A stretch of 64,000 nt of DNA from Lobosporangium transversale (taxonomy: Eukaryota): assembly GCF_002105155.1 (NCBI RefSeq), contig NW_019028994.1:372001-436000 (forward strand), in the 5' to 3' direction. Positions within the stretch are counted from its first letter, which is position 1, and the number at the start of each line of letters is the position of its first letter. This document shows, in pieces, positions 6,635 through 58,312 of the stretch. The notes beneath the pieces were generated by a model. The model saw only the letters and a list, made by a program, of their open reading frames with translations, was not told the origin of the DNA and searched no databases. Position numbers and translations under genes: made by a program.

Positions 6635-7195
6635 CTACTCGCTGGGTTCTTCTTCTGGGTAGACTCTTGCAAACTTCCAGCCCTTGATGTAGCCTTCTTG
6701 GCCTTCATACCTAAAAGAAACCCAGTTTATTTTACCTTCTTCCTCATTGGAGTTGCTCTCGCTGACAACAAGTGTCTGGTTATTGACCTTTCTTGGGTGA
6801 GCGAGGACGTGCCTGGTGAAAGGACCGCCTGCAATCCTGGTAATGAACCACCTTTGCGGCTTTTCAGTAACACCAAGAGATGCTCCTGGAAGAGCCCCAG
6901 ATCTTCCTTCCGAGAGGTATTTTCTCTTATCTGCGTTCTTGTCATAAATTTGAAGAGACACCTGCCCTTTGCTATGGTTGCGAAGTTGCCATACTTGAAG
7001 TTTAGCTTCATCTTTGGGCTCAATCCTCACGGAGCCAGTTCTAGCATCTGGATAAGCAGTGAAGTAGCGGTTTCGGGAGGGTACATGCTGATTTCCTTTG
7101 AAAATGCGGTAGTAGCCATTGGGAAGCAAAGGCTCCGCGATGGCAACACTAATGATCGCAAGGATCGCAATCAATAAGACGGCGACTTGGTGCAT
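6635..7195 (-). CDS. Family A copy A1: secreted ricin-B/beta-trefoil-like protein, 186 aa
   Basis: Signal peptide MHQVAVLLIAILAIISVAIA, then EPLLPNGYYRI. Motifs QVW, QRW and KGW. The start follows a 5'UTR intron acceptor (aatag|tATG). The fold call is inferred from motif spacing. Confidence 0.8.
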   Translation of the reverse strand: MHQVAVLLIAILAIISVAIAEPLLPNGYYRIFKGNQHVPSRNRYFTAYPDARTGSVRIEPKDEAKLQVWQLRNHSKGQVSLQIYDKNADKRKYLSEGRSGALPGASLGVTEKPQRWFITRIAGGPFTRHVLAHPRKVNNQTLVVSESNSNEEEGKINWVSFRYEGQEGYIKGWKFARVYPEEEPSE

Positions 7196-9390
7196 ACTAT
7201 TCATTAGACATAGGCTTTGTGAGTACAGAGGAATAGATTGAATGGATACTCTTATGACAAAAATAATGGCATACGAGATAGTATCCAAAAGATTATTCTC
7301 ACCTTGAGATAAGGTCGACTTGAAGAAGTGGGGCAGAATTGAATGTGTATGAGGGATAGAGGTATGTTGTTGGACGGGGGTAAGCTTTGCTTTTATATAT
7401 GTTTTTTTTTTTTTTTTTCTCATGTGTAATATTGTACGAGGAACCCTTGGCGTAGAGCTGCAACAGCGCGTGGTATGTTGGTATGTTACACATAACACAC
7501 GGCATGCAAAAAAGAAATCGCGAATCAATCCGAGTGAAGAATGGTCTAAATTTAATACAGCGTTTGTACAAGAAAATGCAGAGATCACGCAAGGTTGGTG
7601 CATTTGGTCAATTAATATGCATTGCAAACACGGCGTCCCTCTGTTGACATTTCTTTTTTTTTTCTTTCTTTGATTCGTATGTCCTAAACCAACGGCCAAA
7701 AACATCTCAAAATATAAACATTCTGTGTGAAACAACCGATCTGAACGCAAAGACCTCATTGTTACCGAGGGTTGGCGTTTTTTTTTTTTTCCTTTCTTTT
7801 CTGTTATTTTTAGACTACGCCATCTCTTACCTTAATTGAACTCAAGCTAAATCGCAAATAGGGAAACCATCTCCAACCCTACCGCCACCAATAAATATCT
7901 GTTTTTCTCAATAGTCTTCTCTTTTTTTCTTACAGGAACTCATTGATTTTTGAGACGAACCACTTGTGCTCGTAGATTTTGTGTTTAGTCTTCTCTGTCT
8001 TACTTTACCGAGGGATCCTATTTGCCTTTTATTCACCGATTCGCTTGCCACAGTAAGCAGTGATCACCTTCAGAAGTCTCTCCCACACACTCCATTGGAA
8101 CAACAGCACCAAGCAACGGGAAATCTGCAACAGGGCTTTTGTGTACCCAGTGATTTCGTCCAATTTTTCTTAAATGTGGCGACGGTCAAAATGTGATAAC
8201 ATGTATTGAGAGCACTTTTATTACTTTATTGATATATATTTTTTGATACGACGGAAGCAGTGGCGATATGGAGTACTCGTTGTGACTCAGGCTGTAGAAA
8301 AGAAAAGAAAAAAAGGAAAAGAAAAGATCCTGAGTTCCTCCTAATGATGTCATCTCCTTTTTTTCTTTTTTTTTCCATTCCTATTTCCTATTCCTAGTAA
8401 GGTCCCAATTAACACACTTCTACTTCCGTTCATAATAGTACATGTACGGTACTGTTGTTTTATTTACAACAATTGGCATCATCACTAACGATCTTTTAAA
8501 CTAGTGTCTTGGCAAGCTCACTTTCAACATTAAGAATAAAATAATTGCCGTTTCTCCATCTTTTGCTAGAATAAGGAGCAGGGACATGGCGTTGACATGG
8601 AATTACAAGGGTCAGACAGGAACAAGAGTGGCCATTACCACAGGTATAATTAAGCTGTGACTTCATTTTCCCTGCATTGGCTAAATTCAGGGCTCGCACA
8701 GACAGACTTTGCAGGCATACTCAGTCATTGATGTGTCTTATGAAAAATGTATTTCATGTCTGAACAAGAATGAGGGAGGTCTCTATGGCTTTAAAGGAGA
8801 GAGTTAGGACATTCTCACTAAGCCCTCCAATGACACCCTAGTTTTGACTGTAGCAGTAACGATAACCTAGGGTTACATCGGGAAGGGGCTTTTTTTTGTA
8901 CTCGAGCCTCTCAAACAGAAGTGAACCAAAAGTCACTTTTATCCTGCTCAAAAACCAAATTGCCCAAGGACGCTATTAAGGTCAGTCATGAACCTATATA
9001 TCATAGCAGGTCAGCATCACTCGCATTAATTGCTTACTATTTTACGCCCTGACAGTTCAACTGCCTCAAGTATCTAGCATCAGTGTGCAAGTAAGAGTTA
9101 GGGATAAGAACCTTGATTGTTGATTTCATGCCTCCTTCAGATTTCACTTTGCAAAACGATTTCCTTTTTTTTTTTTTTTTTTTTTTTTTGTCGCGTCTTC
9201 CCTGTTTACTCCATTGATACTCTCTCTAGTGCCCAAAGACTTGTCTGACTGATTATCGCTTTTATTTCCATACTTTCATTTTCCATATTTTCAAACTAAA
9301 TACTAAAATAGAACCAAGACTATTCTCGATACATAGGACAAGGCTTTAAAGATCTCCTTTTGATTTCAAAAGGATGTCAGACGCTCGCCT

Positions 9391-9885
9391 TTAGTGAACA
9401 CGAGTAATGTTCCAAGGCTGCTTAGCTCTGGGATTGCCCTCAGAAAGAAGAGCAATGCGCTTGGGAAGTAGAGCGTTAGGGCTGACATCGACATTGAGCC
9501 ACTTGCCATGGACCTTCACTGGGTACACGATCTTGTACTTGTCGCCAGCCTTTTCGAGCGTCCACCTCTGGCTAGTGCCGCTAACAGCCAAGTAGGCATA
9601 CTCCCTGGCACCAAGTGGGCTCAAAGAAAGATATCGCGGCTGGTGTCCGCGAGTAGAAAGAGTGATCTTGTTACCGGCATAGTTACGAAGGTACCATACT
9701 TGATGGTAGCCAGGAGTTGGCAGGGACGCCTGGTAAGTGGCAGGCCAGAACCCGGCACTTCCCGTTTTAGTGGTGATATAGCGGTTGGCGATCGAGATCC
9801 GGTAGTATCCATTAGGAAGAAGCGCGGCCATGGCCACGTTGACAATTGCAAGGATTGCAACCAAGAAAGTGAGTGGTTGATGCAT
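9391..9885 (-). CDS. Family B copy B1 (divergent): secreted ricin-B/beta-trefoil-like protein, 164 aa
   Basis: Signal peptide, then LLPNGYYRI and three QxW motifs (QVW, QRW, QPW). No Cys. A 5'UTR intron acceptor lies 1 nt before the ATG. Confidence 0.8.
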   Translation of the reverse strand: MHQPLTFLVAILAIVNVAMAALLPNGYYRISIANRYITTKTGSAGFWPATYQASLPTPGYHQVWYLRNYAGNKITLSTRGHQPRYLSLSPLGAREYAYLAVSGTSQRWTLEKAGDKYKIVYPVKVHGKWLNVDVSPNALLPKRIALLSEGNPRAKQPWNITRVH

Positions 9886-9936
9886 CCTATTCAATAGCCA
9901 CAGACATAGCAAAGCGTTAACAAGAGATATAGTCTG

Positions 9937-9972
<36 letters not shown>

Positions 9973-11324
9973 AAAGAAGCAACCCTGTCAGCGTGGTACT
10001 TAGAATTAGGATAGGAGGCTTACCTGAGGGAGCTGAGTTGGAGTAAGCTAGAAGAAGACTGGGGAAGTAGGTAAGGTAAGTAGAGTGCAAGAGCTGCGAG
10101 CGTTGGTTGATGGTTGAGAATTGCTCTGAGGAACCCGCCTTTTTTATATGGATTTTGTCTTCTTTGTAACGTCTAGATTGATATGATCGCGCAGCCAGCT
10201 TAGTGTTACCTGGTAGTTACTCTCAGGGGTTCTAGACGCATAAGTACGCGCAGCTCGCAACTATAGCCAATGAGATTGATGTTTAAAGTGTCTTTCTTTT
10301 TTCCTTTCCTTCGACGGTCTACTTTTCCTCGCGGTCATGTATCTCAAAGATAGGCCATGTTTCATTGATCTAAACGCAGCCACCTCATTGTCTATGGTAT
10401 GAATTTGCATTTTTATTTTTAGGAGGGCCAATCCATGTGCCTGTTCTCTTTTTTATTTTTATTTCTTCATACTTTTTGCTTTGTCATCCATCGTGTGCTT
10501 CTAATCACTAGAGTCGCGAAGAGGCCCAGACATAGCCCATCATAGGAAGCTGAGACTTCTCTAATACAACGAAAATATATAAGAACTGAGAAGAGTATAA
10601 GCCTTGACCCAAGGAACATGTGGATATTTTGGACTTGAAGTCTAAATTAGTGGCAATGTGCTAAATCAGTTTAGAGTTTGGTTCCAGGCCTTTCTTTTTA
10701 ACGCCCTACATCACAATTGCTTGAAAGCATGCGGAGTGGAACCTGTAGGTTCCAATAAAATGTCGCAATAGATCACAGAAACTTGACCACCAGTCAAATG
10801 AGTTGGTATTGATAGGCTATGCTTTATATTTGCCTTTAGCACTGCCCTTTGCCTCACAAGGTCAATGCGAAGTCCTTTCCTTCTTGCCAATCAATGAACA
10901 GTAAGCTGCACTCCTCCTGACTGGATGGTTTTGAGTACCTAAAATATCTCGTGCCAACTATGACTCAAGCATAGATTCTCTAACTAAAAAAAAATAAAAT
11001 AAAATAAAATAAAAAAAAAACGTATACATGTCCTGTATTTTTACTTATTGAATAGGTCACTACTTTTTTATATGCGCTCAGCAAACATGTGCAAGTTAAT
11101 CAATAACCTCTTTTTAATGGAAGTAGTAGTAGCCGTTAACAAAGCATTACTTTCGGTATATTATGCTCTATTTCTTCCGAGCCATGAGATTTCCCCCCTT
11201 AACATCTTAACATTAATTAGTCGACCTTTGAACACTAGCACTAGCAATGTCAACAGATGTATTCGTCTAAGGAGGTAATGATAAGGACACTATTTTTATT
11301 TTTACTTTTTTATTTATCTCATCT

Positions 11325-11800
11325 GAATAAAACAGTTCATGAATGTATTCCAACCTCTAACAGCGGCTACCAAGGCTGCAAAGGATTATGAGGCTGGAAA
11401 ATTGAGTACTCAATCCCTCAGTTCAAAAATCTTTATAATCTCTCACCTACTAAAAACGTATGTCATCAACTGTTCATTGTTATCATGGGACGTCATTTGT
11501 ATCTCCTAGAAATCAACAATTTCCACAACGCGTCCCTCTATAAGCTTTTGACTATGGCCAATCATTGGCTAACCTAATTTAATATCTTTTTTTCTTGTGC
11601 TCTCTTGGAATGCATAGATCGCAGAATTTCTGAAGCGCTTTAGAATCAATGAGGACACAACACCCTTAATAGTAATCAAGATTGGTAGTAACCCCGACGA
11701 AGTTTTGGAGGATATGTCCAAGGCAGTAGATGAGATTCAGATCTCGTTTTCAAAACTAGATCAAGAGAAGGGTATGATTGGGCTTTACCAGGTAAAAATA
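11325..11800 (+). pseudogene. CGI121: CGI121 fragment (exons 2-3 with intron 2)
   Basis: Matches 4720-5220. Exon 1 is absent and there is a 1-nt deletion in exon 2 (aatctttataat vs aatcatttataac). Confidence 0.85.
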
Positions 11801-13381
11801 AATAAATAAATAAAAAGCTCGCTGTGAAGAGCTTGGTCAACTACAAGTGTTTTCATACCTATTGATGCAGGGTCTCGCTCGGGTACTGATAAGAGCATGG
11901 ATATCACGAACCTTTAGCTTCAGGCCTAGAACATATGTATTGTCAAAGTTAACTCGTTGTTGCCTGATCAAAGTACTGTTAATAGAAAATCAAGCTGATT
12001 TAGAACATTGTCAACTTTCATTACCACAAATCGTACATTTCTGACTGACTGAATATCTCGGATGCAGTTATTGTTAGCGCATAAAAGTGAGTAGGTCTGA
12101 AGGGTTGCTTCAAAGAAAATGTTTCGCATCGAACATTTACAGCACTTTGATGATATCGCTCAGATACGTCGGACCGTTCCTTTCGGTCAAGATCCATTTT
12201 GTCCAAGGAATTCGGAGATATTGCTATAACTAACTAGGTTGAGCAAAACTACAGCTTTGGCTTAATATCGGAGGATCATGGCCGTATATAAATGTCCTCC
12301 TCTTTCTTTGTCACCATTTTTACTTCTTCTATTTTAAGGAAGTGTCTTATACTGCCACGGCGAAAAGTATATCATCTCACACAGCGAAGAACGATTGTAG
12401 AATCTAGAGTTTGGTCAGTGCTTGTTAGTTGCCCCGTCCACAGATCTATATATTGAAACGTTTTCATGGAGTGCTTCGGAGGAAGGCTGCATTCTGGCTA
12501 CACGACCTAGCTATACTTCTATTCAGCTGTATTTCATTGTGCAGGAGAGCAACAAGTAATGCCCGAAGTGGCTGCACAACCTAATAAACCATGCCTTTTG
12601 ATTACAAGGGCCCTCAGGGGCAATGAGATTTATTTTTTTAAACGACGCAACCAAGGTTGAGGGCATCAGACAGATGGCTCGTAGTGCTAGCAACATGTCT
12701 ATTCAAGATGTGGTTGAGTTGTGTGTCGCTAACACGAAGCTTTTGGTGCAACACGGACCTACAAGCAGGCGTGTTCTTTATCTAGTCGCGCATGGAGTAT
12801 CCATTTGCACTTTGGTGACACTACCAATGACATCCATCTGAGTCCGCAGACCCTAGCCAAATGGGACATCGCCAAGGCCCATCGGAAGCAGTAATATGAG
12901 AAAAGGTGCTATTGAGTAGGGGGGCCGATGACTATATCGATGGTAATAAGCGATCTGGTCTAAGACCACCGGCGCATAAACAATTAATGCAACGAAGAGA
13001 GTCAATATGTAGCATGGCACTGACGATAAGCTTAAAGTAGCAAACTATCTAAAGGAAAAAAGGAGGCGCCTTCTCTTATTGACACTGCACAAGCCAAATA
13101 GTTTCACAGTAACCGCCAAGTAATCCGGCCATTGTGGCATAAACCATCATCATTTTGCTACTAGTGTGGCTCTCTCCGTTTGCCGTTAAGCCTTTGTGTC
13201 CTATAGGAAGGAGCAAGTGTTGTCACCTCAACAAAGTGGTGAGTTTTTTTTTTTTTTTTTTTTTTTTTTTATAGTTTTATTTAATAGAAACAAGAGGTTA
13301 TAGATATCTGCAATGTGGAAAGAATTGCCTTCGCAGATGAACCGAAGCTGAACTGAGGGCCTGGCTTGAATCTTCGCCTAC

Positions 13382-14128
13382 TTACTTGTCGTCTTCACCA
13401 TCGCCGTTGTGTTGGTCGTCATCACCGTTGTTCATGTCGTCCTCACCGTTGTTCATGTCGTCCTCACCGTTGTTCATGTCGTCCTCACCGTTGTTCATGT
13501 CGTCCTCACCGTTGTTCATGTCGTCCTCACCGTTGTTCATGTCACCGTCGCCGTTATGCTTGTCTTCTTCGTCTTCGTCGTCGTCGGGGTAGACTCTCGC
13601 AAATCTCCAGGCCAGAGTGTAGTTAGTTTGGCTTTCATACTTGAAAGAAACCCAGTTCATTTTGTCATCATTCTCCTCAAAAGTGTTGCTCTCACTGACA
13701 ACAAGTGTCTGGTTACGGAACTTTCTCGGGTGAGTGAGCTTATATCTGATGTATCTGCCTCTTCCCACTCTGGAAATGAACCACTTTTGACGAGTCTTAG
13801 TAACACCCAGGCTTGCTGATGGAAGGGCTCCGGATCTTCCTTCCGAGAGGTATTTGCTCTCATCTGCATCTTCATCATAGACTTCAAGAGACACCTGGTC
13901 TTTGCTATGGTTGCGGAGTCGCCACACTTGAAGCTTATCTTCATTGTTAAGCTCAATCTTCACGGAACCAGACCTAGCGTCTGGATAAGCAGTGAAGTAA
14001 CGGTTCCTGGCGGGCAAGCGATAGTACCCTTTGAAGATACGATAGTAACCGTTAGGAAGCAAAGGCTCTGCAATGGCCACACTGATGGCTGCGAGGATCG
14101 CAACCAATAAGACGGTAGCTTGATGCAT
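13382..14128 (-). CDS. Family A copy A2, 248 aa, with expanded acidic C-terminal repeat tail
   Basis: Same signal peptide and LLPNGYYRI start. Motifs QVW, QKW and LAW. The tail has five exact MNNGEDD units plus variants. Confidence 0.8.
   Translation of the reverse strand: MHQATVLLVAILAAISVAIAEPLLPNGYYRIFKGYYRLPARNRYFTAYPDARSGSVKIELNNEDKLQVWRLRNHSKDQVSLEVYDEDADESKYLSEGRSGALPSASLGVTKTRQKWFISRVGRGRYIRYKLTHPRKFRNQTLVVSESNTFEENDDKMNWVSFKYESQTNYTLAWRFARVYPDDDEDEEDKHNGDGDMNNGEDDMNNGEDDMNNGEDDMNNGEDDMNNGEDDMNNGDDDQHNGDGEDDK
13416..13560 (-). repeat. 21-bp coding tandem repeat (tcgtcctcaccgttgttcatg on + strand)
   Basis: Five exact units plus degenerate flanking units, encoding MNNGEDD in A2. Confidence 0.95.
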
Positions 14129-16131: not shown

Positions 16132-16629
16132 CTAGTGGACAGGAGTGAAGTTCCAAGGCTGCTTGCCTCTGGGATTGCCATCGGAGAGGTGAGCAATGCG
16201 CTTGGGATATACAGTGTCAGGAGTGACATCGACATTGAGCCACTTGTCATGGACCTTCACTGGGTACACGATCTTGTACTTGCCGTCATCAGCCTTTTCG
16301 AGCGTCCACTTCTGGCTAGTGCCACTAACAGCCAAGTAAGCATACTCCTTGGCACCAGATCGGCTCAATGAGAGGTATCGCTGGTGGTATCCGCGAGGAG
16401 AAAGAGTGACCTTGTCACCAGCATGGTTACGGAGATACCATTCCTGATAATAACCAGGAGCTGACAGAGACTCCTGGTAAGTGGCAGGCCAGTACCCGGT
16501 GCCTCCTGTTTTAGTGGTGATATAGCGGTTATCGATGGAGATGCGGTAGTATCCATCAGGGAGAAGCGCAGCCACGGCCACGTTAACGATTGCGAGGGCT
16601 GTAGCCAAGAAAGCGAGTGGTTGATACAT
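16132..16629 (-). CDS. Family B copy B2, 165 aa
   Basis: MYQPLAFLATALAIVNVAVA signal peptide and QEW/QKW/QPW motifs. Confidence 0.8.
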   Translation of the reverse strand: MYQPLAFLATALAIVNVAVAALLPDGYYRISIDNRYITTKTGGTGYWPATYQESLSAPGYYQEWYLRNHAGDKVTLSPRGYHQRYLSLSRSGAKEYAYLAVSGTSQKWTLEKADDGKYKIVYPVKVHDKWLNVDVTPDTVYPKRIAHLSDGNPRGKQPWNFTPVH

Positions 16630-20012: not shown

Positions 20013-20594
20013 TTACTTATCATCTTCGTCGTCGTTGTGCTTGTCGCCTTCACTGTCGTTAATGTTGACTTTCGCAAATTTCCACGCCTGGGTGTAGCCT
20101 TCTTGGCCTTCATACCTAAAAGAAACGAAATTTATTTTATCTTCGTCGGAGCCGCTCTCGCTGACAACAAGTGTCTGGTTATCGAACTTTCTCGGATGGG
20201 TGAGCATATATCTGGTGTAAGAGCTTACTCCAACCTTAGTAATGAACCACCTTTGTCGCTCTTCAGTAACGCCCAGATGTGCTCCTGGAAGGGCGCCAGA
20301 TCTTCCTTCCGAGAGGTATTTCCTCTCATCTGCATCCTTATCATAGACCTCAAGGGACACTCGGCCTTTGCTATGGTTGCGAAGCCGCCACACTTGAAGT
20401 TTGCCTTCATCTTTGAGCTCAAGCCTCACGGAGCCAGTTCTAGCATCTGGATAAGCAGTGAAGTAGCGGTTTCTGGCGGGCACGTGGAAGGTTCCTTTAT
20501 AAATGCGGTAGTAACCATCTTGAAGCAAAGGCTCCGCGATGGCAACACTAATGATCGCAAGGATCGCAATCAATAAGACGGCGACTTGGTGCAT
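20013..20594 (-). CDS. Family A copy A3, 193 aa
   Basis: Signal peptide, EPLLQDGYYRI, QVW/QRW/QAW motifs and an acidic tail. Confidence 0.8.
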   Translation of the reverse strand: MHQVAVLLIAILAIISVAIAEPLLQDGYYRIYKGTFHVPARNRYFTAYPDARTGSVRLELKDEGKLQVWRLRNHSKGRVSLEVYDKDADERKYLSEGRSGALPGAHLGVTEERQRWFITKVGVSSYTRYMLTHPRKFDNQTLVVSESGSDEDKINFVSFRYEGQEGYTQAWKFAKVNINDSEGDKHNDDEDDK

Positions 20595-22529: not shown

Positions 22530-22874
22530 CTAGTGGACAGGAGTGAAGTTCCAAGGTTGCTTGCCTCTGGGATTGCCATCAGGGAGAAGAGCAATGCGCT
22601 TGGGATATACAGTGTCAGGAGTGACATCGACATTGAGCCACTTGCCATGGACCTTCACTGGGTACACGATCTTGTACTTGCCGTCATCAGCCTTTTCGAG
22701 CGTCCACTTCTGGCTAGTGCCACTAACAGCCAAGTAAGCATACTCTTTGCCATCAGATCGGCTCAACGAGAGGTATCGCTGGTGGTATCCGCGAGGAGAA
22801 AGAGTGACCTTGTCACCAGCATGGTTACGGAGATACCATTCCTGATAATAGCCAGAAACTGACAAAGCCTCCTG
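22530..22874 (-). pseudogene. Family B copy B3, 5'-truncated
   Basis: Homology to the B genes stops abruptly at ~22874 (codons QE). The signal peptide, first subdomain start and promoter are replaced by unrelated DNA. Confidence 0.85.
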
Positions 22875-30575: not shown

Positions 30576-33083
30576 ATGAGTAAACGACGTCGTCGAATTA
30601 TCGAGGAGGAAGCAGAAGAAGTATTTATTGATTACATTTGCCATATTACTTTGTATTAAGAAAAGAAGGAAAAAACTTAACCTTAATGTTTAAATTAATA
30701 CCTCCATAGCAATTTTATCATACATGAACTTAAGGTTTATGACGTTGGTAACACTTCTATGTCTGCCAGCTTTGACGCACCTGACAACGATATGGATATG
30801 GAGAGCGTGATGAGCGGCAGCGTGATGAATGAGAGCTTAGTGACGAGGAGCGTGGGAAGCTCCAGCGTGGCAAGCAGCACGGCGATCAACCGAAGCTGGG
30901 CGTGGTCACTGAAGAACAAGTGGGCCGAGCGTGTTAAAACTAAGAGTGGCTCTGGTATGCGCTGCTGTTACCCTAGCTGCGGGAAAACCTTTGGTTCATC
31001 AAATATGTCAACTTCAGGGGTCATCCAGCATCTGTGGCGAGTACATCGCATCACTAAAGATAGCAATGCCAATGATGGCAGTCTCTCCAAGCAAGGCCCA
31101 ATGGACAAGATGCTTAATTCATTTTCTCAGCCAAAAGTATTTGACCCTACGAGATTTGACGAATTGCTTGTCCGATTCGTTATCACAACAAAGCAGCCAT
31201 TTACGATTGTCAAAAGCACTGCTCTCCAGGAGCTTCTAGTCCATGCTACAATGGCTACAGCATCTCAAGTAAAGCTACCGTCTGATGACACCATGGCAAC
31301 CAAGGTAAAACTATTATTACTATGATTATGATTATTATTATTATTATTATTATTACTCTTCAATTATTATTTTTTTTTTATAACAAACATCAACCAAACA
31401 CTGACAAAAAGATGGATTAAAAATAGGCTAAGCTAAAATGCCAATACATGGAGCATCAAGTCATAAGCTTATTTGAGGATATTAACAAGGTATCACTGAC
31501 CGTTGATGGCTGGACAAGCCCTTTCCAAGACAACTTCCTGGGGGTAACAGCTCACTGGATTGATCATGACTGGCGCCAACAAGAGCTGGTCATTGGATTT
31601 GAGCCATTGTATGGAGCGCATACAGGTGAGAACTTAGCGGAATCTCTGGCTAAGGTCATCGATCGATTTAAAATTGGTGACAAGCTTCTAAGTATCACCA
31701 CCGACAATGCGTCAAATATGTCCAAAATGATCCGAGAGCTTGAAAAGCATCCCAAGGCAGTAGAATGGGAATTCTCAGTCACTTTTAATAATGCTAGCGC
31801 ATCTAGTAATGAGTTATCTCTAACGCTTCTCTTAAAAAAAATAAAAATAAATAAAAATAAAAAACATTAGGCCGCTCAAGGATGGCTTATACCATGTGCC
31901 ATGCCTTGGACACATCATTAATCTGGCAGTTCAGGCGATTTTGGGCCCAAGTGGTTTGAATGACTTGGCTCCTGAAAATGACAGTCTCTACGTGAACAAC
32001 AATGAGTGTGAGGATGCGGTTGGGTTAACGCTTGTAACGCTGAGTACATTACAGAAACTCAGAAAAGGCATTGTTAAGATCAGGTCAGTATTACTATATA
32101 ATCTTGACTGCAAATATAAACTTGAATCATGAAACTTAACTATAAAATACCTTTTATATCGACTTATACATAGAGCTTCGCCACAAAGAATTGACAAGTT
32201 TGGCCAGGTCTGCGCTATCCTGAAATGCCCAAACCTTGATCTGAAAAGGGATAACTGCACACGTTGGAACTCTACTTTCATCATGGTGGATAGGGCAATA
32301 ACGTTAAGGCTAGCCTACCAGAGCATGTGCCAGAACGAACCGTTTTTATCGGCCTTCTCCCTGAAAGACGAAGAATGGGGATACCTGAAGAAGCTCCATA
32401 TTTTGCTTAGCCAGTTTAATGATATCACAGCTACGGTGTCTTCTAGCCTGGGATACCCGACAATCAACAGAGCCATGTCTGCTTATAACAACATGATCGA
32501 CCACCTAGAAGATTATATTGAAAAAGAAGAGGATCCTCCACTAAAAAACGCAGCAGGTCAAGGGTTAAAGAAGCTTTTGCGTTATTATTCTAAAACTGAT
32601 TCCTCAGCGGTCTATGCCATCGCCACTGCTATGGACCCGAGGATGCGGTTTGACTGGTGGGAAGCTAACGAATGGGGTGAATATATTCAAAGCAGTCAAG
32701 ACATGGTAACGAAGGTCTGGGAAGATGAATATAAGGGCAAAGAAGGCCCAAGTCAGCTTCCAGCTGAAGAAGAAATGGAGATGAGACGCTATGGTATCAA
32801 GAAAAAAGGTGGAGAGCTTGAATTATACGTTCGAGAAGGAAGTTCTCTAGTTGCTAGTAAACATGAGCCTCCAGAGTTAGTGTACTGGCGATCACAAAAG
32901 GAGCGCTTGCCCAATTTGGCGAATATGGCAAAGGACTGTCTTGCAGTCCCTGTGACATCAACCCCGGCGGAAAGATGCTTTTCGCAAGCCAAGTTCTTCC
33001 TGCCACCTGAAAGAAATAGCCTTAGCCCTACGACGATCCAGCGCTTGGTCATCCTGGACTCTTGGATGAATGTTCTCCCATAA
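30576..33083 (+). CDS. hAT transposase with BED zinc finger; probable exons 30576-30620, 30735-31304, 31427-~31768, 31871-32083, 32174-33083
   Basis: BED finger CCYPSC...HLWRVH. Catalytic motifs SLTVDGWTS, ITTDNASN, CLGH and TRWNST. Dimerisation motif TSTPAERCFS. The expected intron-3 donor reads GG rather than GT, so the gene may be inactive. Confidence 0.85.
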
Positions 33084-36446: not shown

Positions 36447-36944
36447 ATGTATCAACCACTCGCTTTCTTGGCTACAGCCCTCGCAATCGTTAACGTGGCC
36501 ATGGCTGCGCTTCTCCCTGATGGATACTACCGCATCTCCATCGATAACCGCTATATCACCACTAAAACAGGAGGCACCGGGTACTGGCCTGCCACTTACC
36601 AGGAGTCTCTGTCAGCTCCTGGTTATTATCAGGAATGGTATCTCCGTAACCATGCTGGTGACAAGGTCACTCTTTCTCCTCGCGGATACCACCAGCGATA
36701 CCTCTCATTGAGCCGATCTGGTGCCAAGGAGTATGCTTACTTGGCTGTTAGTGGCACTAGCCAGAAGTGGACGCTCGAAAAGGCTGATGACGGCAAGTAC
36801 AAGATCGTGTACCCAGTGAAGGTCCATGACAAGTGGCTCAATGTCGATGTCACTCCTGACACTGTATATCCCAAGCGCATTGCTCACCTCTCCGATGGCA
36901 ATCCCAGAGGCAAGCAGCCTTGGAACTTCACTCCTGTCCACTAG
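36447..36944 (+). CDS. Family B copy B4, 165 aa
   Basis: The mature protein is identical to B2. Confidence 0.8.
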   Translation: MYQPLAFLATALAIVNVAMAALLPDGYYRISIDNRYITTKTGGTGYWPATYQESLSAPGYYQEWYLRNHAGDKVTLSPRGYHQRYLSLSRSGAKEYAYLAVSGTSQKWTLEKADDGKYKIVYPVKVHDKWLNVDVTPDTVYPKRIAHLSDGNPRGKQPWNFTPVH

Positions 36945-39062: not shown

Positions 39063-39617
39063 ATGCACCAAGTCACCGTCTTATTGATTGCGATCCTTGC
39101 GATCATCAGTGTTGCCATCGCGGAGCCTTTGCTTCCCAATGGCTACTACCGCATTTTCAAAGGAATTCAGCATGTACCCTCACAAAACCGCTACTTCACA
39201 GCTTACCCAAATGCTAGAGCTGGCTCCGTGAGGACTGAGCCCAAAGATGAAGCTAAACTTCAAGTGTGGCGACTTCGCAACCATAGCAAAGGGCAGGTGT
39301 CTCTTCAAATTTATGACAAGAACGCAGATAAGAGAAAATACCTCTCGGAAGGAAGATCTGGGGCTCTTCCAGGAGCATCTCTTGGTGTTACTGAAAAGGC
39401 ACAAAGGTGGTTTATTACTAAGATTGCAGGTGGTCCTTTCACCAGATACATTCTCACACATCCGAGAAAGTTCCGCAATCAGACACTTATTGTCAGCGAG
39501 AGCTACCCCTATGGGGAGGATGATGACAAAATAAACTGGGTTGCTTTCAGGTATCAAGGCCAGTCGAACCACACCCAGGCCTGGAAGTTTGCAAGAGTCT
39601 ACCCCGAGGACGAGTAG
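39063..39617 (+). CDS. Family A copy A5, 184 aa
   Basis: Near-identical to A1 up to IAGGPFTR, with a divergent C-terminal third. Confidence 0.8.
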   Translation: MHQVTVLLIAILAIISVAIAEPLLPNGYYRIFKGIQHVPSQNRYFTAYPNARAGSVRTEPKDEAKLQVWRLRNHSKGQVSLQIYDKNADKRKYLSEGRSGALPGASLGVTEKAQRWFITKIAGGPFTRYILTHPRKFRNQTLIVSESYPYGEDDDKINWVAFRYQGQSNHTQAWKFARVYPEDE

Positions 39618-41481: not shown

Positions 41482-42042
41482 AAAGAAATAAATAAAAATA
41501 ATATAAAATAAAAATAGAGTAAATTCCAGCAGTGTATTCTTACCTACACCTCCTAGAGGCGAATTAATCTATTGACATTGCTGGTGTTAACGTTCAAAGG
41601 TAAATTAGTTAATGTTGAGGAGAAACCTCATAGCTGAAACAAATGAAACATATACATATCGAAGGCAGTGCTTTGTTAAAGCTACTACTGATGTAGTTCT
41701 TTCAAAACAGGATATTGAATCACTTGCACATGCTGGCCGAGCACGTATAAAAAAGCAAGGGCCTATTCAATAAGCGCAAAGTGCAGTACATGTATACCAT
41801 TTCCTTTTTATTCTTGAGATAGAGGGAATCTATGGCTTAAGTTGTAGTTGACATGAGTTATTTTAAGCACTCAAAGCCATCCAGCCAGGGCAAGTGTGCT
41901 TTGCTGCTCATTGATTGGCAGGAAGGAAGGAACTTCGACCTTGTGAAGCAAATGGCGGTGCCAAAGACAAATATAGCCAACTGACAATGAAGTATAGCCT
42001 ATCAATATCAGCTCATGTGACTGATGCTTAATAAAATCTGCC

Positions 42043-43606: not shown

Positions 43607-43638
<32 letters not shown>

Positions 43639-43690
43639 GCAGGCTGCCTCCCCTGTTAACGCTTCGTTATATCTGCGACTATTGAATAGG

Positions 43691-44188
43691 ATGTATCAAC
43701 CACTCGCTTTCTTGACTATAGCCCTCGCAATCGTCAACGTGGCCGTGGCTGCACTCCTCCCTGATGGATACTACCGCATCTCCATCGATAACCGCTATAT
43801 CACCACTAAAACAGGAGGCACCGGGTACTGGCCTGCCACTTACCAGGAGTCTCTGTCAGCTCCTGGCTATTATCAGGAATGGTATCTCCGTAACCATGCT
43901 GGTGACAAGGTCACTCTTTCTCCTCGCGGATACCACCAGCGATACCTCTCATTGAGCCGATCTGGTGCCAAGGAGTATGCTTACTTGGCTGTTAGTGGCA
44001 CTAGCCAGAAGTGGACGCTCGAAAAGGCTGATGACGGCAAGTACAAGATCGTGTACCCAGTGAAGGTCCATGGCAAGTGGCTCAATGTCGATGTCACTCC
44101 TGACACTGTATATCCCAAGCGCATTGCTCTCCTCTCCGATGGCAATCCCAGAGGCAAGCAGCCTTGGAACTTCACTCCTGTCCACTAG
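43691..44188 (+). CDS. Family B copy B5, 165 aa
   Basis: Differs from B2/B4 at two mature residues (HGKW, IALL). Confidence 0.8.
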   Translation: MYQPLAFLTIALAIVNVAVAALLPDGYYRISIDNRYITTKTGGTGYWPATYQESLSAPGYYQEWYLRNHAGDKVTLSPRGYHQRYLSLSRSGAKEYAYLAVSGTSQKWTLEKADDGKYKIVYPVKVHGKWLNVDVTPDTVYPKRIALLSDGNPRGKQPWNFTPVH

Positions 44189-46128
44189 AGGCGAGCCTCT
44201 GACATCCTTTTGAAACTAAATGAAACCCTCAAAGGCCTTGTCCTAGATATTGAGGATAGTCTCGCTGCTGTTATAGTATTAAGTGTTTGAAAAAAAATAG
44301 AAATGAAAGTATGAACATAAAGGCAATAAAGCGATCAGATAGACCCTTTGTGCATTATACAGGATTCCCATGGAGTAAATAGTAAATATGCGACAATACA
44401 AAAAGGTCGTCTTACAAAGCGGAATCTGAGCAAGACTTGAAAACAATAAGCTCCTTTATCTGTAACTTTCATTTGCATTGGTACATATGACTTGAGGTAA
44501 CTAGGAACACATGGACGCCAAGATGTAAAGTAAGCAATTTTACCGAGCACTGCTGACCTGCTTTGATCTATGGGCCCACAACTGGTTTTAATAGCCTTCC
44601 CAGCCAACTCGACTCCTGAGCAGGATAAAGGTAGCTTTCTGGCTCCTTTTCATCTGGGAAACTCGAGTACAAAAAGAAAGGGGTTCTTTCCGAAGAAGAA
44701 GGGAGTCCTCTCCTTTTTGCTTGCAGATGTAATCCTAGGTTACCATTACTGCTACAGCCAAAGTCAGGGTGTCATTGGAGGCTTAGTGAGAATGTCCATA
44801 GTCCTCTCCTTTAAAGCCATGGGGATTGTCCTTCACTCCTGCAGGCATGAATGAGTACATTTTTCATGATACATCGATGATTGAGTATACCTGCAAAACC
44901 TGTCTGTGATTGTCTGTGCAGGTTCTCCTGAATTCAGGCGGTGCATGTAAAATGAAGTCACAACTCAGCTCATGTCTAAGCTACTATGGTGATGGCACTC
45001 TTGTTCCTGTCTTGGTCAATGTCATGGCGGCACTCCTTCTTTTACCTTGATTTCTAGCAAAAGATGGTGGTTTTTTTAATTTTTATATTCATTTATGAGA
45101 ATTAGCTAGCCAAGGTGCTGGTTTAAAAAATCATAGTTTTCAAAATAGTGCTACTATTATGAACAGACATAGATATGTGTTATATTGGGCACTGATTGCG
45201 AATGGAAATGGGGTGAGGGTCTGAGGGCCTTTTCTTTTCTTTTCTTTCTTTTTTGCTTTTCATAGCCTGAGCGCTTCATGTCGCCCGAATTGGCAACATT
45301 GCTTCCGCCATACTAGATGATATCAATGATGATGATAATAAGCTCTCAATACTACTCTACCATGACCGTTATCGTGTTTAGTAGTTTCTAAGGAATCAAT
45401 CACAAAGTCTGCGAGCATAGTGATTAGTCTCAACAATCAATGAGCTCTGTAAGGAAAGAGAAGAAGTGTTGAGTCAATCAGATATTGGTGGTGATAGTAG
45501 TCCAATTGAGGTAAGAAACGGCGCAATCTAAAAATAAGCTAACTCTTGGTTACAATGAGGTCTTTACGTTCATATCAATTGTTTCACAAAGCTTATATAT
45601 TATGTATTAGCCGTTGCTCCAAGCATATGAACTTCAGAAAATAAAAAAGAAATCACTGAAGGGAAAAAAAAAGACGTGTCAGTAAAGGGGCACCGTATCA
45701 ACAATGCATACCAATTGGCCAAATATGTTGACCTTCGTTAAATTTAGACGTAGAAGGGGCCACTCATCATTCTTCGGACTGATCTGAGGCTTTCCTTTTT
45801 GTATGTCGTGTATTGTGTGCATCATACCACGCGCTGTTGCCAAGAGTACCTCGTACAATACACATGAAATCGAAAAAAAAAAATAATAAAAAAAAGTCTA
45901 TAAAAGCAAAGCTTTCCTTCATACGGCAACATCTCTCTATCCACTTGCACACATTCAAGCCTGCCTTACTCCCTCAAGCCTACACTCTAGCCTGCCCTAT
46001 ACTACCATTTCCTAAATTTACCCTACCTCAAGGTGAGAATAAGTATTTTGTATGCTTTTACTTTTATCGTGAGTCCATCCATCCATTCTATTCCTCAGTG
46101 CTCACTAAGTCTGCGCTCAACGAGTAGT

Positions 46129-46713
46129 ATGCATCAAGCCGTCGCCTTATTGGTTGCGATCTTTGCGATCATTAGTGTGGTCATTGCAGAACCCTTGCTT
46201 CCAAATGGCTACTACCGTATTTACAAGGGAAACCACCGCGTGCCCTCCAAGCACCGTTACTTCACTGCTTATCCAGATGACAGGACTGGCTCTGTGAAGA
46301 TTGAGCTCAAAAATGAAGATGAACTTCAAGTATGGCGACTCCGCAATCATGACAACGGCAAAGTGTCCCTTGAAGTCTACGATGAAGATGCAGATGAGAG
46401 CAAATACCTTTCGGAAGGAAGATTTGGAGCCCTTCCAGGAGCATATCTAGGTGTTACTGAAAAGCGCCAAAAATGGTTCATTACCAGGGTTGGGAGAGGT
46501 GCTTACACAAGATACGCACTCACTCACCCGAGGAAGTTCAATAACCAAACGCTTATCGTGAGTGAAAGCAACACCTATGACGATGACATTAATAAACCGA
46601 ACCGGGTTTCCTTTAGATATGAAGGCCAAGAAGGTTACACTCATGCCTGGATGTTTTGGAGAGTCTACCCTGATGGCGACAACGGAGACGATAAGCACGA
46701 AGGCGACAAGTAG
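46129..46713 (+). CDS. Family A copy A6, 194 aa
   Basis: The promoter and N-terminal half are near-identical to A4, and the C-terminal half is divergent. Confidence 0.8.
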   Translation: MHQAVALLVAIFAIISVVIAEPLLPNGYYRIYKGNHRVPSKHRYFTAYPDDRTGSVKIELKNEDELQVWRLRNHDNGKVSLEVYDEDADESKYLSEGRFGALPGAYLGVTEKRQKWFITRVGRGAYTRYALTHPRKFNNQTLIVSESNTYDDDINKPNRVSFRYEGQEGYTHAWMFWRVYPDGDNGDDKHEGDK

Positions 46714-48894: not shown

Positions 48895-49491
48895 TTACTT
48901 GTCGTCTTCGCCGTCATCATTGTGCTTGTCGTCGCTGTCATCGTCGTCAGGGTAGACTCTCGCAAACTTCCAAGCTTGAGTATAGTTTGTTTGGCCTTGA
49001 TACCTAAAAGAAACCCAGTTTGGCTTGCCAATATCCTCGTCATAGGTGTTGCTTTCACTCACAATAAGCGTTTGGTTATTGACCTTTCTTGGGTGAGCGA
49101 GCATATATCTGGTATATAAGCTTACTCCGACCTTGGTGATGAACCACTTTTGTCGCTTTTCAGTGACACCAAGATGTGCTCCTGGAAGAGCCCCAGACCT
49201 TCCCTCTGAGAGATACTTTCTCTCGTCTGCGTCCTCGTTATAAACTTGAAGGGATACTTGGCCTTTGCCATGGTTGCGGAGCCGCCACACTTGAAGCTCA
49301 TCATCATTTTTGGTTTCGATTCTCACAGAGCCAGTTCTAGCATCTAGGTAAGCAGTGAAGTAACGGTTTCTGGAGGGAACGCGGTGGTTCCCTTTGTAAA
49401 TACGATAGTAGCCATCAGGAAGCAAGGGCTTTGCAGCGGCCACACTAATGACCGCAATAATCGCAATCAATAAGATGGTAATTTGATGCAT
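48895..49491 (-). CDS. Family A copy A7, 198 aa
   Basis: Signal peptide, KPLLPDGYYRI, QVW/QKW/QAW motifs and an acidic tail. Confidence 0.8.
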   Translation of the reverse strand: MHQITILLIAIIAVISVAAAKPLLPDGYYRIYKGNHRVPSRNRYFTAYLDARTGSVRIETKNDDELQVWRLRNHGKGQVSLQVYNEDADERKYLSEGRSGALPGAHLGVTEKRQKWFITKVGVSLYTRYMLAHPRKVNNQTLIVSESNTYDEDIGKPNWVSFRYQGQTNYTQAWKFARVYPDDDDSDDKHNDDGEDDK

Positions 49492-51391: not shown

Positions 51392-51889
51392 CTAGTGGAC
51401 AGGAGTGAAGTTCCAAGGCTGCTTGCCTCTGGGATTGCCATCGGAGAGGAGAGCAATGCGCTTGGGATATACAGTGTCAGGAGTGACATCGACATTGAGC
51501 CACTTGCCATGGACCTTCACTGGGTACACGATCTTGTACTTGCCGTCATCAGCCTTTTCGAGCGTCCACTTCTGGCTAGTGCCACTAACAGCCAAGTAAG
51601 CATACTCCTTGGCACCAGATCGGCTCAATGAGAGGTATCGCTGGTGGTATCCGCGAGGAGAAAGAGTGACCTTGTCACCAGCATGGTTACGGAGATACCA
51701 TTCCTGATAATAGCCAGGAGCTGACAGAGACTCCTGGTAAGTGGCAGGCCAGTACCCGGTGCCTCCTGTTTTAGTGGTGATATAGCGGTTATCGATGGAG
51801 ATGCGGTAGTATCCATCAGGGAGAAGCGCAGCCACGGCCACGTTAACGATTGCGAGGGCTGTAGCCAAGAAAGCGAGTGGTTGATACAT
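51392..51889 (-). CDS. Family B copy B6, 165 aa
   Basis: The mature protein is identical to B5. Confidence 0.8.
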   Translation of the reverse strand: MYQPLAFLATALAIVNVAVAALLPDGYYRISIDNRYITTKTGGTGYWPATYQESLSAPGYYQEWYLRNHAGDKVTLSPRGYHQRYLSLSRSGAKEYAYLAVSGTSQKWTLEKADDGKYKIVYPVKVHGKWLNVDVTPDTVYPKRIALLSDGNPRGKQPWNFTPVH

Positions 51890-53440: not shown

Positions 53441-53473
<33 letters not shown>

Positions 53474-56260: not shown

Positions 56261-56261
56261 A

Positions 56262-56415: not shown

Positions 56416-57551
56416 GGCATTATTTAGTTACATCCCTGGTTATATATAAGCTTACAGGTGTAAAACGCGGGGCGCAAACCAGCTCTGTGCGGACCACGAT
56501 TTGACTACAAATTTATATGTACCCAACACATGCCCACCACATAGCCAACAGATGGCTGGTGGAGGTGATAATGAGCCAGTAAGTGCGGTTGATACAGAGC
56601 CATGGACAGGACCGCATACAAGCAGACTAGAAGAGCACTTTGCGAAGACATTGAAGCGCCTTATTCGCTCAGTGGGGAGAATATTATCTCACTCAATGAA
56701 GAACGATTGTTGGATTTCGATTTCGATTATGATCATTGCTTGATTGTTACCACATTCATAGATCGATACATTAAAAAGCTTTTATAGATGTTTCGGGGAG
56801 AGACTGATTCCCGGCTATAGGTCCCAAGTATTCTTCTATTCAACTATAGTGCATTGTGCAGGAGTGCAACAAGCGATGTCTGAGGTGGACATAAGGCTAA
56901 CAGTCTTTTTTTTTTTTTTTTTTTTTTTTTTTTCACTACAAGGCCCCTCAAGGCCATGGGATCTATTTTTAAACAAAACGACCGAGGTAGAGGGTATCAG
57001 GCAAATGCCCCATAGTACTAGCAACATGTGTATTTAGGATGTGGTTAAATTGTATGTTGCCAACAGGTAGATTTCGGTGCAACATGGAGCTACAAACAAG
57101 CATGCTCTTTCTCTAGCCACACATGAGGCATCTATTCACACTATGACGACATTGTCAATGTCATCCATTCAAGTTCAAAGATTCTAGCCAAATGGAACAT
57201 TACCAAGGTCCATTAGGGGGGCAGGCTGAGAAACATTGTTATATTTACGGTAGTAAGCGGTTCAGCCAAAGACTACTGGCTCAAAAACAATCAATGCAAC
57301 GAAGAAGATCAATATGCAGTATAGCGCTGAGGAAAAGTCTAAGATGAAAGAAGTATGCAGGAATATCTAAAAAAAAAAAGGAGCACCTCCCCCTATTGAC
57401 ATTACCAAGTCGAATAGTCTCACAGGCGCCACTAAGTGAATCAATCATTTTGGCCTGCACCACCGTCTCTATACTGGTGTGGTATCCTCCATTTACTGTA
57501 TAACCTTTGTGTTTAAAGGAACAGGCACGCGAGGTCATCACAACAAGGGCA

Positions 57552-57587
<36 letters not shown>

Positions 57588-57697
57588 TTTTATTTACTTA
57601 ATAGAATTCAGAGGTTACAAATATCTGCGTTATGGAAGAATTGCCTTCGAAGCTGAACTGAAGCTGAACTGAGGACTTGGTCTGAACTTTCGACTAT

Positions 57698-58312
57698 TTA
57701 CTCGTCATCTTCGTCATCGTTGTGCTTGTCAACTTCGTCATCGTTGTGCTTGTCATCTTCGTCATCGTCGATGACGGCTTTCAGAAACCTCCACTCCCTG
57801 GTGTAGTCTTCTTGGTCTTCACCCCTAAAAGTAACCCAGTTTGGCTTATTAATATCCTCGTCACGGGAGTTGCCCTCGCTGGCAACAAGTGTCTGGTTGT
57901 AGTACTTTATTGGGTGAGTGAGGATGTATCTGGTCCAAATGTTTTCCCCAACCGAGGTAAAGAACCACTTTCGTCGCTTTTCAATAACACCCAGATGCGC
58001 TCCTGGAAGGATGCCAGGTCTTCCTTCCGAGAGGAATTTTCTCTTATCTGCGTTCTTGTCATAGACTTCAAGGGACACCCTGCCTTTGCCATGGTTGCGA
58101 AGTCGCCACACTTGAAGTTTAGCTTCATCTCTGGGCTCAAGTCTCACGGAGCCAACATTAGCATTTGGGTAAGCAGTGAAGTAGCGGTATGTTCTGGGCA
58201 AGCGGTGCTTTCCTTTGCAAATACGATAGTAGCCGTCAGGGAGCAAAGGCTCCGCAATGGCCACACTAATGATCGCAAGGATCGCAATCAATAAGACGGT
58301 GACTTGGTGCAT
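57698..58312 (-). CDS. Family A copy A8, 204 aa (most divergent)
   Basis: Signal peptide, EPLLPDGYYRI and QVW/RKW/REW motifs. The tail has a duplicated DKHNDDE unit. Confidence 0.8.
   Translation of the reverse strand: MHQVTVLLIAILAIISVAIAEPLLPDGYYRICKGKHRLPRTYRYFTAYPNANVGSVRLEPRDEAKLQVWRLRNHGKGRVSLEVYDKNADKRKFLSEGRPGILPGAHLGVIEKRRKWFFTSVGENIWTRYILTHPIKYYNQTLVASEGNSRDEDINKPNWVTFRGEDQEDYTREWRFLKAVIDDDEDDKHNDDEVDKHNDDEDDE

What the first reader, a model, noticed from the sequence alone, without database searches (positions are those of the whole stretch)
6635..58312. Family A variation is concentrated in three loops, as expected under diversifying selection
Seen: the scaffold motifs (LQVW.LRNH, LSEGR, LGV, NQTL) are fixed. 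Variation clusters after YYRI.KG (NQHVPSRN, YYRLPARN, TFHVPARN, NHRVPSKN, IQHVPSQN, KHRLPRTY), after the second W (IAGGPF, VGRGRY, VGVSSY, VGRSYY, VGRGAY, VGENIW), and in a length-variable loop after SE[SG]. None of the 8 copies has a stop or frameshift, although the neighbouring CGI121 fragments have decayed. Inference: these are surface binding loops in an arms race, on a scaffold kept by purifying selection.
Basis: partly seen in the sequence, partly recalled or inferred. Interest (0 to 1): 0.7.

Follow-up and report, generated by a model that had tools for sequence, protein, structure and literature searches.

The report
Fungal secreted beta-trefoil gene array
A soil fungus carries eight intact, scrambled copies of a gene for a protein predicted to be secreted and to fold like mushroom lectins and protease inhibitors; its three variable loops change at about the neutral rate rather than faster, so the proposed arms race is not supported, although one copy likely went through a burst of adaptive change.

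Summary
The eight family A genes, their fixed motifs, the quoted loop variants and the decayed CGI121 fragments are real. They encode Mortierellaceae-type beta-trefoil proteins with a signal-peptide-like start (model pLDDT 88.7; best structural match clitocypin, Z 17.8, next lectins at about 16). The scaffold is under purifying selection (strand omega 0.23). The three loops hold 30% of the variability in 14% of columns, but their omega is 0.82 (95% CI 0.50-1.35), so they are not distinguishable from neutral. The copies are mosaics made by gene conversion (PHI p=0.0005). A one-tree site test looks positive (M8a-M8 p=4e-5) but fades with segment trees (p=0.09) and disappears with double-nucleotide changes allowed (M1a-M2a p=0.34). 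Simulations show the one-tree test misfires in 50 of 118 null sets, while loop-wide selection would have been detected in 15 of 15. By published topology the loops lie on opposite ends of the fold. What remains: copy A8 has 35 private amino-acid-changing versus 2 silent changes (branch-site p=0.0001; 0.012 with double hits), and loop 2 lost a Gly-Gly turn that most relatives keep. Ordinary duplicated secreted-protein array; modest interest.

The parts
6635..7195 (-). A1, 186 aa beta-trefoil with signal-peptide-like start; keeps the ancestral-type IAGGPF loop 2
13382..14128 (-). A2, 248 aa, long acidic repeat tail
20013..20594 (-). A3, 193 aa, loop 3 shorter by 3 residues
28540..29133 (+). A4, 197 aa; codons 1-98 differ from A6 at 3 of 294 nt, codons 99-181 at 55 of 249 (conversion tract)
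39063..39617 (+). A5, 184 aa, the copy that was folded; shares codons 54-112 with A1 (3 of 177 nt differ)
39165..39188 (+). Loop 1 in A5 (beta1-beta2, lower crown); omega about 0.8-0.9 over the 8 copies
39423..39440 (+). Loop 2 in A5 (beta8-beta9 turn, root); holds codon 125 (39435-39437), 7 residues in 8 copies; omega about 0.9
39504..39530 (+). Loop 3 in A5 (beta10-beta11 hairpin, upper crown); length-variable; omega about 0.75
46030..46126 (+). 5' UTR intron (GT..AG, 95 nt) upstream of A6; spliced out in a contig of run X5; an equivalent intron (75-109 nt) precedes all 8 copies
46129..46713 (+). A6, 194 aa, mosaic with A4
48895..49491 (-). A7, 198 aa, most constrained branch (omega 0.17-0.19)
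57698..58312 (-). A8, 204 aa, accelerated branch (omega about 2; 35 private nonsynonymous versus 2 synonymous changes)
9391..9885 (-). B1, 164 aa, paralogous beta-trefoil family B (about 30% identical to A), divergent copy
16132..16629 (-). B2, 165 aa; B2 and B4-B7 are 97-99% identical
22530..22874 (-). B3, 5'-truncated remnant
36447..36944 (+). B4
43691..44188 (+). B5
51392..51889 (-). B6
60215..60712 (-). B7
4432..5414 (+). Intact CGI121 gene (4 exons, 176 aa); its 3' part was carried in the duplicated unit, leaving 5 broken fragments further along the array
30759..33083 (+). hAT transposase remnant in pieces inside the array

Best explanation
Family A is a set of eight intact duplicated genes for a predicted secreted beta-trefoil protein, whose strands are held by purifying selection while three or four long loops change at about the neutral rate and are reshuffled between copies, most likely by gene conversion. 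A unit of CGI121 3' part + A + B was duplicated head-to-tail and inverted (shown). The CGI121 passengers decayed (shown), A and most B copies were kept (shown), and B plus the 5' side of A were repeatedly homogenised while the 3' half of A was not (shown as a pattern; conversion is the inferred cause). Mosaic ancestry and double-nucleotide changes create most of the apparent omega>1 (shown by models and simulation). One copy, A8, likely underwent an episode of positive selection towards a new specificity (inferred; about 55% versus relaxation). The proteins likely bind extracellular partners as other fungal beta-trefoils do (inferred, untested): non-canonical glycan binding about 0.4, protease inhibition of the mycocypin/cocaprin type about 0.3, other 0.3.
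For: Pairwise dN/dS 0.18-0.83, all below 1. Fixed-site omega: strands 0.23 [0.17-0.30], other loops 0.41-0.51, the three loops 0.82 [0.50-1.35]. PHI p=0.0005, also on third positions; one breakpoint near codon 105 improves AICc by 149. M8a-M8 p: 4e-5, 0.015, 0.088, 0.092 and M1a-M2a p: 2e-4, 0.036, 0.26, 0.30 for 1, 2, 4, 6 segments. With double hits M1a-M2a p=0.036, 0.34, 0.41 for 1, 2, 4 segments. Null with mosaic trees: 50 of 118 one-tree tests falsely significant. Power: 13% of sites at omega 3 detected in 35 of 35 and 15 of 15 sets; 5% at omega 4 in 28 of 29 and 15 of 17; none as low as the observed 2.73. Column variability in A correlates with that in outgroup homologs (rho 0.27, p=7e-4). 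Tandem cocaprin paralogs show the same loop-over-strand excess, 29 of 74 versus 21 of 65 (PMC9104457, passages). A8: omega 2.1-2.6 versus 0.33-0.36 background (p about 1e-6), branch-site p 1e-4 to 6e-4 in all four partitionings; 1 of 1800 relaxed-null simulations reached its silent-change deficit. Fold: pLDDT 88.7, 12 strands, best matches clitocypin Z 17.8 and lectins Z about 16.
Against: Codon 125 stays an outlier: 7 residues in 8 copies, FEL p=0.010-0.015 uncorrected, and p=0.0004-0.0012 with the silent rate fixed (Bonferroni threshold 0.0003). The one-tree statistic of 16.8 was reached in only 5 of 118 nulls. Loop 2 is conserved in relatives (Gly-Gly in 22 of 26 closer homologs) but lost it in 6 of 8 copies, so it is not simply a tolerant loop. 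An average omega near 1 can hide a mix of constrained and selected sites; the CI reaches 1.35, and 2.0-2.5 for loops 1 and 2. For A8, double hits cut the branch-site p to 0.012-0.019 (not significant over 8 branches) and the two-ratio test against omega=1 to non-significance; against the flank clock the excess is only p=0.05. The codon models are my own scripts, not PAML or HyPhy. No binding function was tested.
Confidence: 0.62

Rival explanations
1. One reading: the three loops form a binding surface under ongoing diversifying selection in an arms race.
For: Clustering exceeds chance (p=0.004-0.014); one-tree M8 is significant; codon 125 has posterior 0.92-0.99 in all partitionings; loop 2 changed from conserved to hypervariable after duplication; loops of related folds are functional sites (PMC9104457, PMC9579014 passages).
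Against: Loop omega 0.82; signal lost with partitions and double hits; simulated loop-wide selection is always detected; 4 of the 5 one-tree M8 sites (138, 157, 168, 172) lie outside the quoted loops, and 157 and 168 are dimorphic blocks; loop 2 is on the root face and loops 1 and 3 on the crown.
Confidence: 0.13
2. A8 is not adapting but has lost constraint and is an early pseudogene; there is no positive selection anywhere in the array.
For: A8 changes 10 of 78 columns invariant in the other seven; with double hits its omega CI includes 1; its silent rate (2 of 97) is low against its flanks (22 of 420), so part of the ratio may be chance; multinucleotide changes are a known cause of false branch-site results (10.1101/165969, search listing only).
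Against: ORF, signal-peptide-like start, UTR intron ends and core Trp/Gly/Tyr residues are intact; its changes still favour already-variable columns (24 of 83 versus 10 of 78, p=0.02); relaxed-null simulations gave about 10 private silent changes versus 2 seen; nonsynonymous rate 0.089 exceeds pooled neutral 0.046 (p=0.012); a second assembly has the same A8 protein.
Confidence: 0.3
3. Selection acts by blocking homogenisation: conversion tracts that would overwrite the 3' half of A (loops 2, 3 and beta11-beta12) are purged, keeping a variable A repertoire beside a constant B.
For: In B windows up to 10 of 21 unit pairs differ by under 3%; from about A codon 100 onward 0 of 28 do. Two independent tracts end at codons 98 and 112, just before loop 2.
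Against: Divergence keeps rising into the non-coding 3' flank (0.29-0.5), so it is a step, not a peak on the loops; polar conversion or unequal crossing-over starting on the B side gives the same picture. Run X1 may show an A4-type tract running through loop 2 (weak).
Confidence: 0.15
4. The mosaics and near-identical repeats are assembly or polishing artefacts.
For: Many near-identical B regions and long poly-T tracts.
Against: Records on other, short contigs give identical proteins for A3, A6, A7, A8 and the first 206 aa of A2; contigs of runs X2 and X3 match 46394-49600 with 0 differences and branch where the A4/A6 tract ends.
Confidence: 0.04

Closest known systems
Clitocypin/macrocypin (mycocypins, MEROPS I48/I85; I85 recalled)
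   Same: Single-domain fungal beta-trefoil; best Foldseek (E 2e-6) and VIA match (Z 17.8, rmsd 2.6, 140 aligned); profile E 1.4e-5; stable core with variable loops.
   Different: 19-20% identity; no Gly-Gly in beta1-beta2; no conserved Asn in beta5-beta6 (Asn in 3 of 8); Pfam Inhibitor_I48 not hit; family A has a signal-peptide-like start and an N-glycosylation sequon; Mortierellaceae, not mushrooms.
Fungal ricin-B-like lectins (RSA, CNL, CCL2, MpL; Pfam RicinB_lectin_2 PF14200)
   Same: Z about 16 for RSA and CNL; CCL2 profile E 3e-6; 19 of 26 aligned members hit PF14200 at E up to 1; QxW-like motifs.
   Different: Window proteins score below the Pfam cut-off; third QxW is degenerate; canonical Asp/Asn sugar residues not seen (positions recalled); CCL2 is described among cytoplasmic lectins (PMC3355094).
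Cocaprins of Coprinopsis cinerea
   Same: Tandem paralogs of a beta-trefoil with more change in loops than strands; Z 15.6.
   Different: Three cytoplasmic genes in 4 kb versus 15 genes with signal-peptide-like starts in 55 kb with conversion; function of family A unknown.
Mucoricin of Mucorales
   Same: Small ricin-B-like protein of an early-diverging fungus (10.1101/2021.01.13.426274, passages).
   Different: No Mucorales record among the named homologs; family A has LSEGR, not the EEGRL motif of that paper; no sequence comparison was made and no toxin activity is implied.
Birth-and-death gene arrays with gene conversion (general model, own knowledge)
   Same: Segmental duplication, decayed passengers, mosaic paralogs, one accelerated copy.
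   Different: Neighbouring paralog families behave oppositely: B homogenised, A 3' half not.

Membership tests
Beta-trefoil fold | 12 strands in three repeats, structural match to solved trefoils | tested here: met
   Model pLDDT 88.7 with 12 assignable strands; VIA Z 17.8 to 12.7 to beta-trefoil entries
Ricin-B-like lectins (PF14200) | Pfam score above gathering cut-off 25.6 | tested here: not met
   Window proteins 12.7-23.9 bits
Ricin-B-like lectins (PF14200) | (QxW)3 signature | tested here: inconclusive
   QVW 8 of 8; Q[RK]W 7 of 8; third repeat QAW in 3 of 8, Trp in 8 of 8
Ricin-B-like lectins (PF14200) | Carbohydrate binding | not testable with these tools
   Needs glycan array; CCL2 shows binding without canonical residues
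Mycocypins | Gly-Gly in the beta1-beta2/beta3-beta4 papain-binding loops | tested here: not met
   Alignment to clitocypin shows no Gly-Gly there
Mycocypins | Conserved P1 Asn in beta5-beta6 | tested here: not met
   Asn87 in A1, A5, A8 only; loop shorter in outgroups
Mycocypins | Protease inhibition | not testable with these tools
   Needs enzyme assays
Loops under diversifying selection | Significant omega>1 class after modelling recombination | tested here: not met
   M1a-M2a p 0.26-0.30 and M8a-M8 p 0.09 with 4-6 segments; p 0.34 with one breakpoint plus double hits
Loops under diversifying selection | Loop omega above 1 | tested here: not met
   0.82 [0.50-1.35]
Loops under diversifying selection | Variable residues on one surface | tested here: inconclusive
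   By topology loop 2 is root, loops 1 and 3 crown; no coordinates were available to measure distances, and loops 1, 3 and beta11-beta12 may share the crown side
Episodic selection on one paralog (A8) | Branch-site test robust to recombination and multi-hit changes | tested here: inconclusive
   Robust to partitions (p 1e-4 to 6e-4); p 0.012-0.019 with double hits, 8 branches tested

The most novel reading that the evidence does not exclude
After duplication the root turn (loop 2), a conserved Gly-Gly turn in most Mortierellaceae relatives, was re-purposed as a specificity loop, and selection protects the 3' half of A from conversion, so the array is a secreted repertoire of one constant beta-trefoil (B) and eight variable ones (A), with A8 caught in the act of neofunctionalising: a secreted, early-diverging-fungus counterpart of mushroom mycocypin/lectin defence.
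Probability: 0.13. Interest if true: 0.65.

Novelty: new member of a known kind. Interest (0 to 1): 0.3.

Why it matters
Mostly as a caution and a lead. It is a clear case where loop hypervariability and a strongly significant one-tree site test come from relaxed constraint, gene conversion and double-nucleotide changes. The lead is that an apparently undescribed, probably secreted beta-trefoil family of Mortierellaceae has expanded to 15 genes in 55 kb, with one copy showing accelerated protein change; if it binds glycans or blocks proteases it would extend fungal beta-trefoil defence to an early-diverging soil fungus and give a ready set of natural specificity variants.

Tried and rejected
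No whole genome was held, so copies elsewhere in the genome and synteny were not checked. phmmer of A5 against PDB gave 0 hits; only profiles found trefoils. One search timed out after 2 of 6 planned settings, so F61 frequencies were never run; the 6-segment F3x4 fit was redone. The breakpoint search was still improving at 5 breakpoints, so the true mosaic may be finer. The first CGI121 exon test had wrong boundaries and was redone. No RNA holder on record was listed; uncovered parts are not used as evidence. Strain variation was laid only over A6-A7, not A1-A3 or A8. No complex model of family A with a protease was obtained, so the protease-inhibitor idea is untested. Earlier findings: nothing by place or by sequence. 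Paper searches 'Mortierellaceae + beta-trefoil' (0 papers), 'Mortierella + ricin B + lectin + secreted' (2, neither on this family by title or abstract start), 'Lobosporangium transversale + gene family + expansion' (8, 7 listed, none on it by title; PMC10079182 has no 'ricin') and 'macrocypin + positive selection + variability' (1, unrelated) found no description; the library is incomplete. Rejected: NQTL as a pure fold motif (it is also the one invariant N-glycosylation sequon); codons 157 and 168 as selected sites (dimorphic blocks that drop out with 4 segments); a mucoricin-like activity from the LSEGR likeness (no support).
Full report
Setting. The window is fungal DNA (GC about 0.41, spliceosomal introns). 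Named homologs of family A are all Mortierellaceae (16 non-self hits at 43-59% identity, 15 of them named), and a named member of the A6 cluster on a contig of the same length as the window's proteins is Lobosporangium transversale, so that species is likely. From about 4.4 kb to 62 kb lies an array of direct and inverted duplications of a unit holding the 3' part of CGI121, gene A and gene B. There are 8 A genes, 7 B genes (B3 is 5'-truncated), one intact CGI121 and 5 broken fragments, plus an hAT transposase remnant.

What the protein is. A and B are paralogs (about 30% identical) with a hydrophobic N-terminus of about 20 residues that looks like a signal peptide (read from sequence; no predictor run). 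AlphaFold2 on a 46-row alignment gave pLDDT 88.7 and a 12-strand domain. Foldseek and VIA rank clitocypin first (Z 17.8, rmsd 2.6, 140 aligned), then the lectins RSA and CNL (Z about 16), cocaprin and macrocypin (15.6). Pfam RicinB_lectin_2 is hit weakly, below cut-off for window proteins; the ESM Atlas gives the same family at 0.94. A shared fold does not give function. Neither mycocypin hallmark (Gly-Gly in beta1-beta2, conserved Asn in beta5-beta6; passages of PMC9104457, PMC7863939 and PMC9579014) is present. Run X5, guessed to be RNA by the tool, covers 13 of 30 bins, mainly the coding parts, splices out the 95-nt GT..AG UTR intron before A4/A6 and matches A7 exactly over 49073-49494: a hint of transcription, not proof.

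The observation. Motifs, loop strings, intact ORFs and decayed CGI121 fragments check out. Retention is meaningful: about 23.5 stop gains expected under neutrality, none seen. The concentration is real but moderate: 30% of entropy in 14% of columns, 21 of 93 variable columns, p=0.004 after allowing for post-hoc choice and 0.014 after allowing for strand versus loop; beta11-beta12 is almost as variable.

Recombination. The copies are mosaics. PHI p=0.0005 on all 142 informative sites and on 74 third positions, 0.049 on 29 sites in invariant codons. A4 and A6 differ at 3 of 294 nt in codons 1-98 and 55 of 249 after; A1 and A5 at 3 of 177 in codons 54-112. A GARD-like search improves AICc from 5378 to 5229 with one breakpoint and is still improving at five. 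Independent records confirm A3, A6, A7, A8 and most of A2, and contigs of runs X2 and X3 branch at the end of the A4/A6 tract, so this is not an assembly artefact.

Selection on sites. All tests are my own GY94 scripts (F3x4, 181 codons up to the acidic tail, branch lengths from M0 rescaled, naive empirical Bayes). With one tree, M1a-M2a p=2e-4 and M8a-M8 p=4e-5, with sites 125, 138, 157, 168, 172; only 125 is inside a quoted loop. With 2, 4 and 6 segments M8a-M8 p=0.015, 0.088, 0.092 and M1a-M2a p=0.036, 0.26, 0.30. A double-nucleotide rate improves fit by about 16 log units on one tree and leaves p=0.036, 0.34, 0.41 for 1, 2, 4 segments. Under a null without positive selection on six segment trees, the one-tree test was significant in 50 of 118 sets, reached the observed 16.8 in 5, and a column with 7 or more residues arose in 17. 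Power was high: 13% of sites at omega 3 was detected in 35 of 35 sets with true trees and 15 of 15 with re-estimated trees; 5% at omega 4 in 28 of 29 and 15 of 17; none was as low as the observed 2.73. The direct test gives omega 0.82 [0.50-1.35] for the three loops, 0.41-0.51 for other loops and 0.23 for strands. So the loops look released, not driven. Codon 125 is the residue of doubt (FEL p 0.010-0.015 uncorrected). A class of about 1% of sites cannot be excluded.

One surface? Loop 1 is beta1-beta2, loop 2 beta8-beta9 and loop 3 beta10-beta11. PMC3355094 (passages) places beta8-beta9 in the roots, beta10-beta11 in the upper crown and barrel-to-hairpin links in the lower crown. Loop 2 is therefore at the opposite end from loops 1 and 3.

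What is left. First, loop 2 carries Gly-Gly in 22 of 26 closer homologs (0 of 8 distant ones and 0 of 3 family B rows; one partial row does not cover it) but only in A1 and A5; its variability is 2.25 times the domain mean in A against 0.64-0.78 in outgroups. The six derived copies have Gly one position earlier, which could free the next three positions without any selection for change (inference). Second, A8: omega 2.1 against 0.33-0.36 (p about 1e-6), while the other seven tips are 0.17-0.81; 35 private nonsynonymous and 2 synonymous changes against 59 and 60 in the others (33 and 2 under the stricter count). The branch-site test gives p 1e-4 to 6e-4 in all partitionings and 0.012-0.019 with double hits; with double hits no other tip is below p=0.79, without them A2 reaches 0.022 and A3 0.059. 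Relaxed-null simulations matched the silent deficit in 0 of 600, 0 of 600 and 1 of 600 sets. Against A8's own flanks the excess is weaker (0.089 versus 0.052, p=0.05), and flanks may be constrained. I put episodic positive selection on A8 at about 55%. Only 9 of its 34 private residues are in the three loops. Removing A8 does not change the site result (p 0.002, 0.26, 0.48 for 1, 2, 4 segments). Third, homogenisation covers B and the 5' side of A but not the 3' half; because divergence keeps rising in the 3' flank this reads as polarity rather than a selected peak.

Verdict. A real, ordinary birth-and-death array of probably secreted beta-trefoil proteins, not found described in my paper searches. 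Scaffold conservation is supported; an arms race on three loops is not; one accelerated paralog is the best lead. Papers: passages seen for PMC9104457, PMC7863939, PMC3355094, PMC9579014, PMC10079182 and 10.1101/2021.01.13.426274; search listing only for 10.1101/165969. No supplements were opened. Canonical ricin-B sugar residues and the birth-and-death model are from my own knowledge.

Noticed in passing
window 9391-60712 (family B): Five full B copies are 97-99% identical, with near-identical flanks over 1-2 kb, while adjacent A genes are 63-85% identical: one B type has spread through the array.
   Followed up: partly
window 46000-46620, run X1: An A4-type contig runs unbroken to 46570 where runs X2 and X3 branch at 46423, and no A6-type middle was laid; possibly a longer conversion tract in another isolate, possibly a coverage or filter gap.
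   Followed up: no
window 46414-46639 and 49061-49101, run X5: Very deep short contig pieces (about 3,000-12,800 versus 10-44) carry letters of other paralogs, one with an A1 loose end; a weak hint that one copy dominates expression. Contig depth cannot rank genes.
   Followed up: no
window 40819-41533: The CGI121 fragment here is 84% identical to the parent overall but its last exon is identical (87 of 87), suggesting recent conversion from the intact gene 35 kb away.
   Followed up: partly
C-termini of A1-A8, e.g. 13382-13580: Acidic tails of 4 to about 68 residues, absent from most outgroup homologs; A2 has a tandem 7-residue repeat; net charge of the mature proteins ranges from +10 to -21.
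   Followed up: no
A codons 168-171: A dimorphic block toggles an N-glycosylation sequon (present in A2, A4, A5, A7) and is distributed against the main tree.
   Followed up: partly
window 26220-26651 +: Single-copy 143-aa ORF with a signal-peptide-like start inside the array; no Pfam hit; Atlas neighbours are unnamed small fungal proteins at 0.87.
   Followed up: partly
window about 29790-33347: hAT transposase remnant bounded by inverted sub-terminal repeats, at the junction of inverted units.
   Followed up: partly
window 1513-4139: Glutathione peroxidase (+) and RNase H1 (-) gene pieces flank the array on the left.
   Followed up: no
proteins P0026, P0083, P0029: Relatives in other Mortierella records include a two-domain fusion and neighbouring paralogs on one contig, so local duplication of this family recurs.
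   Followed up: no
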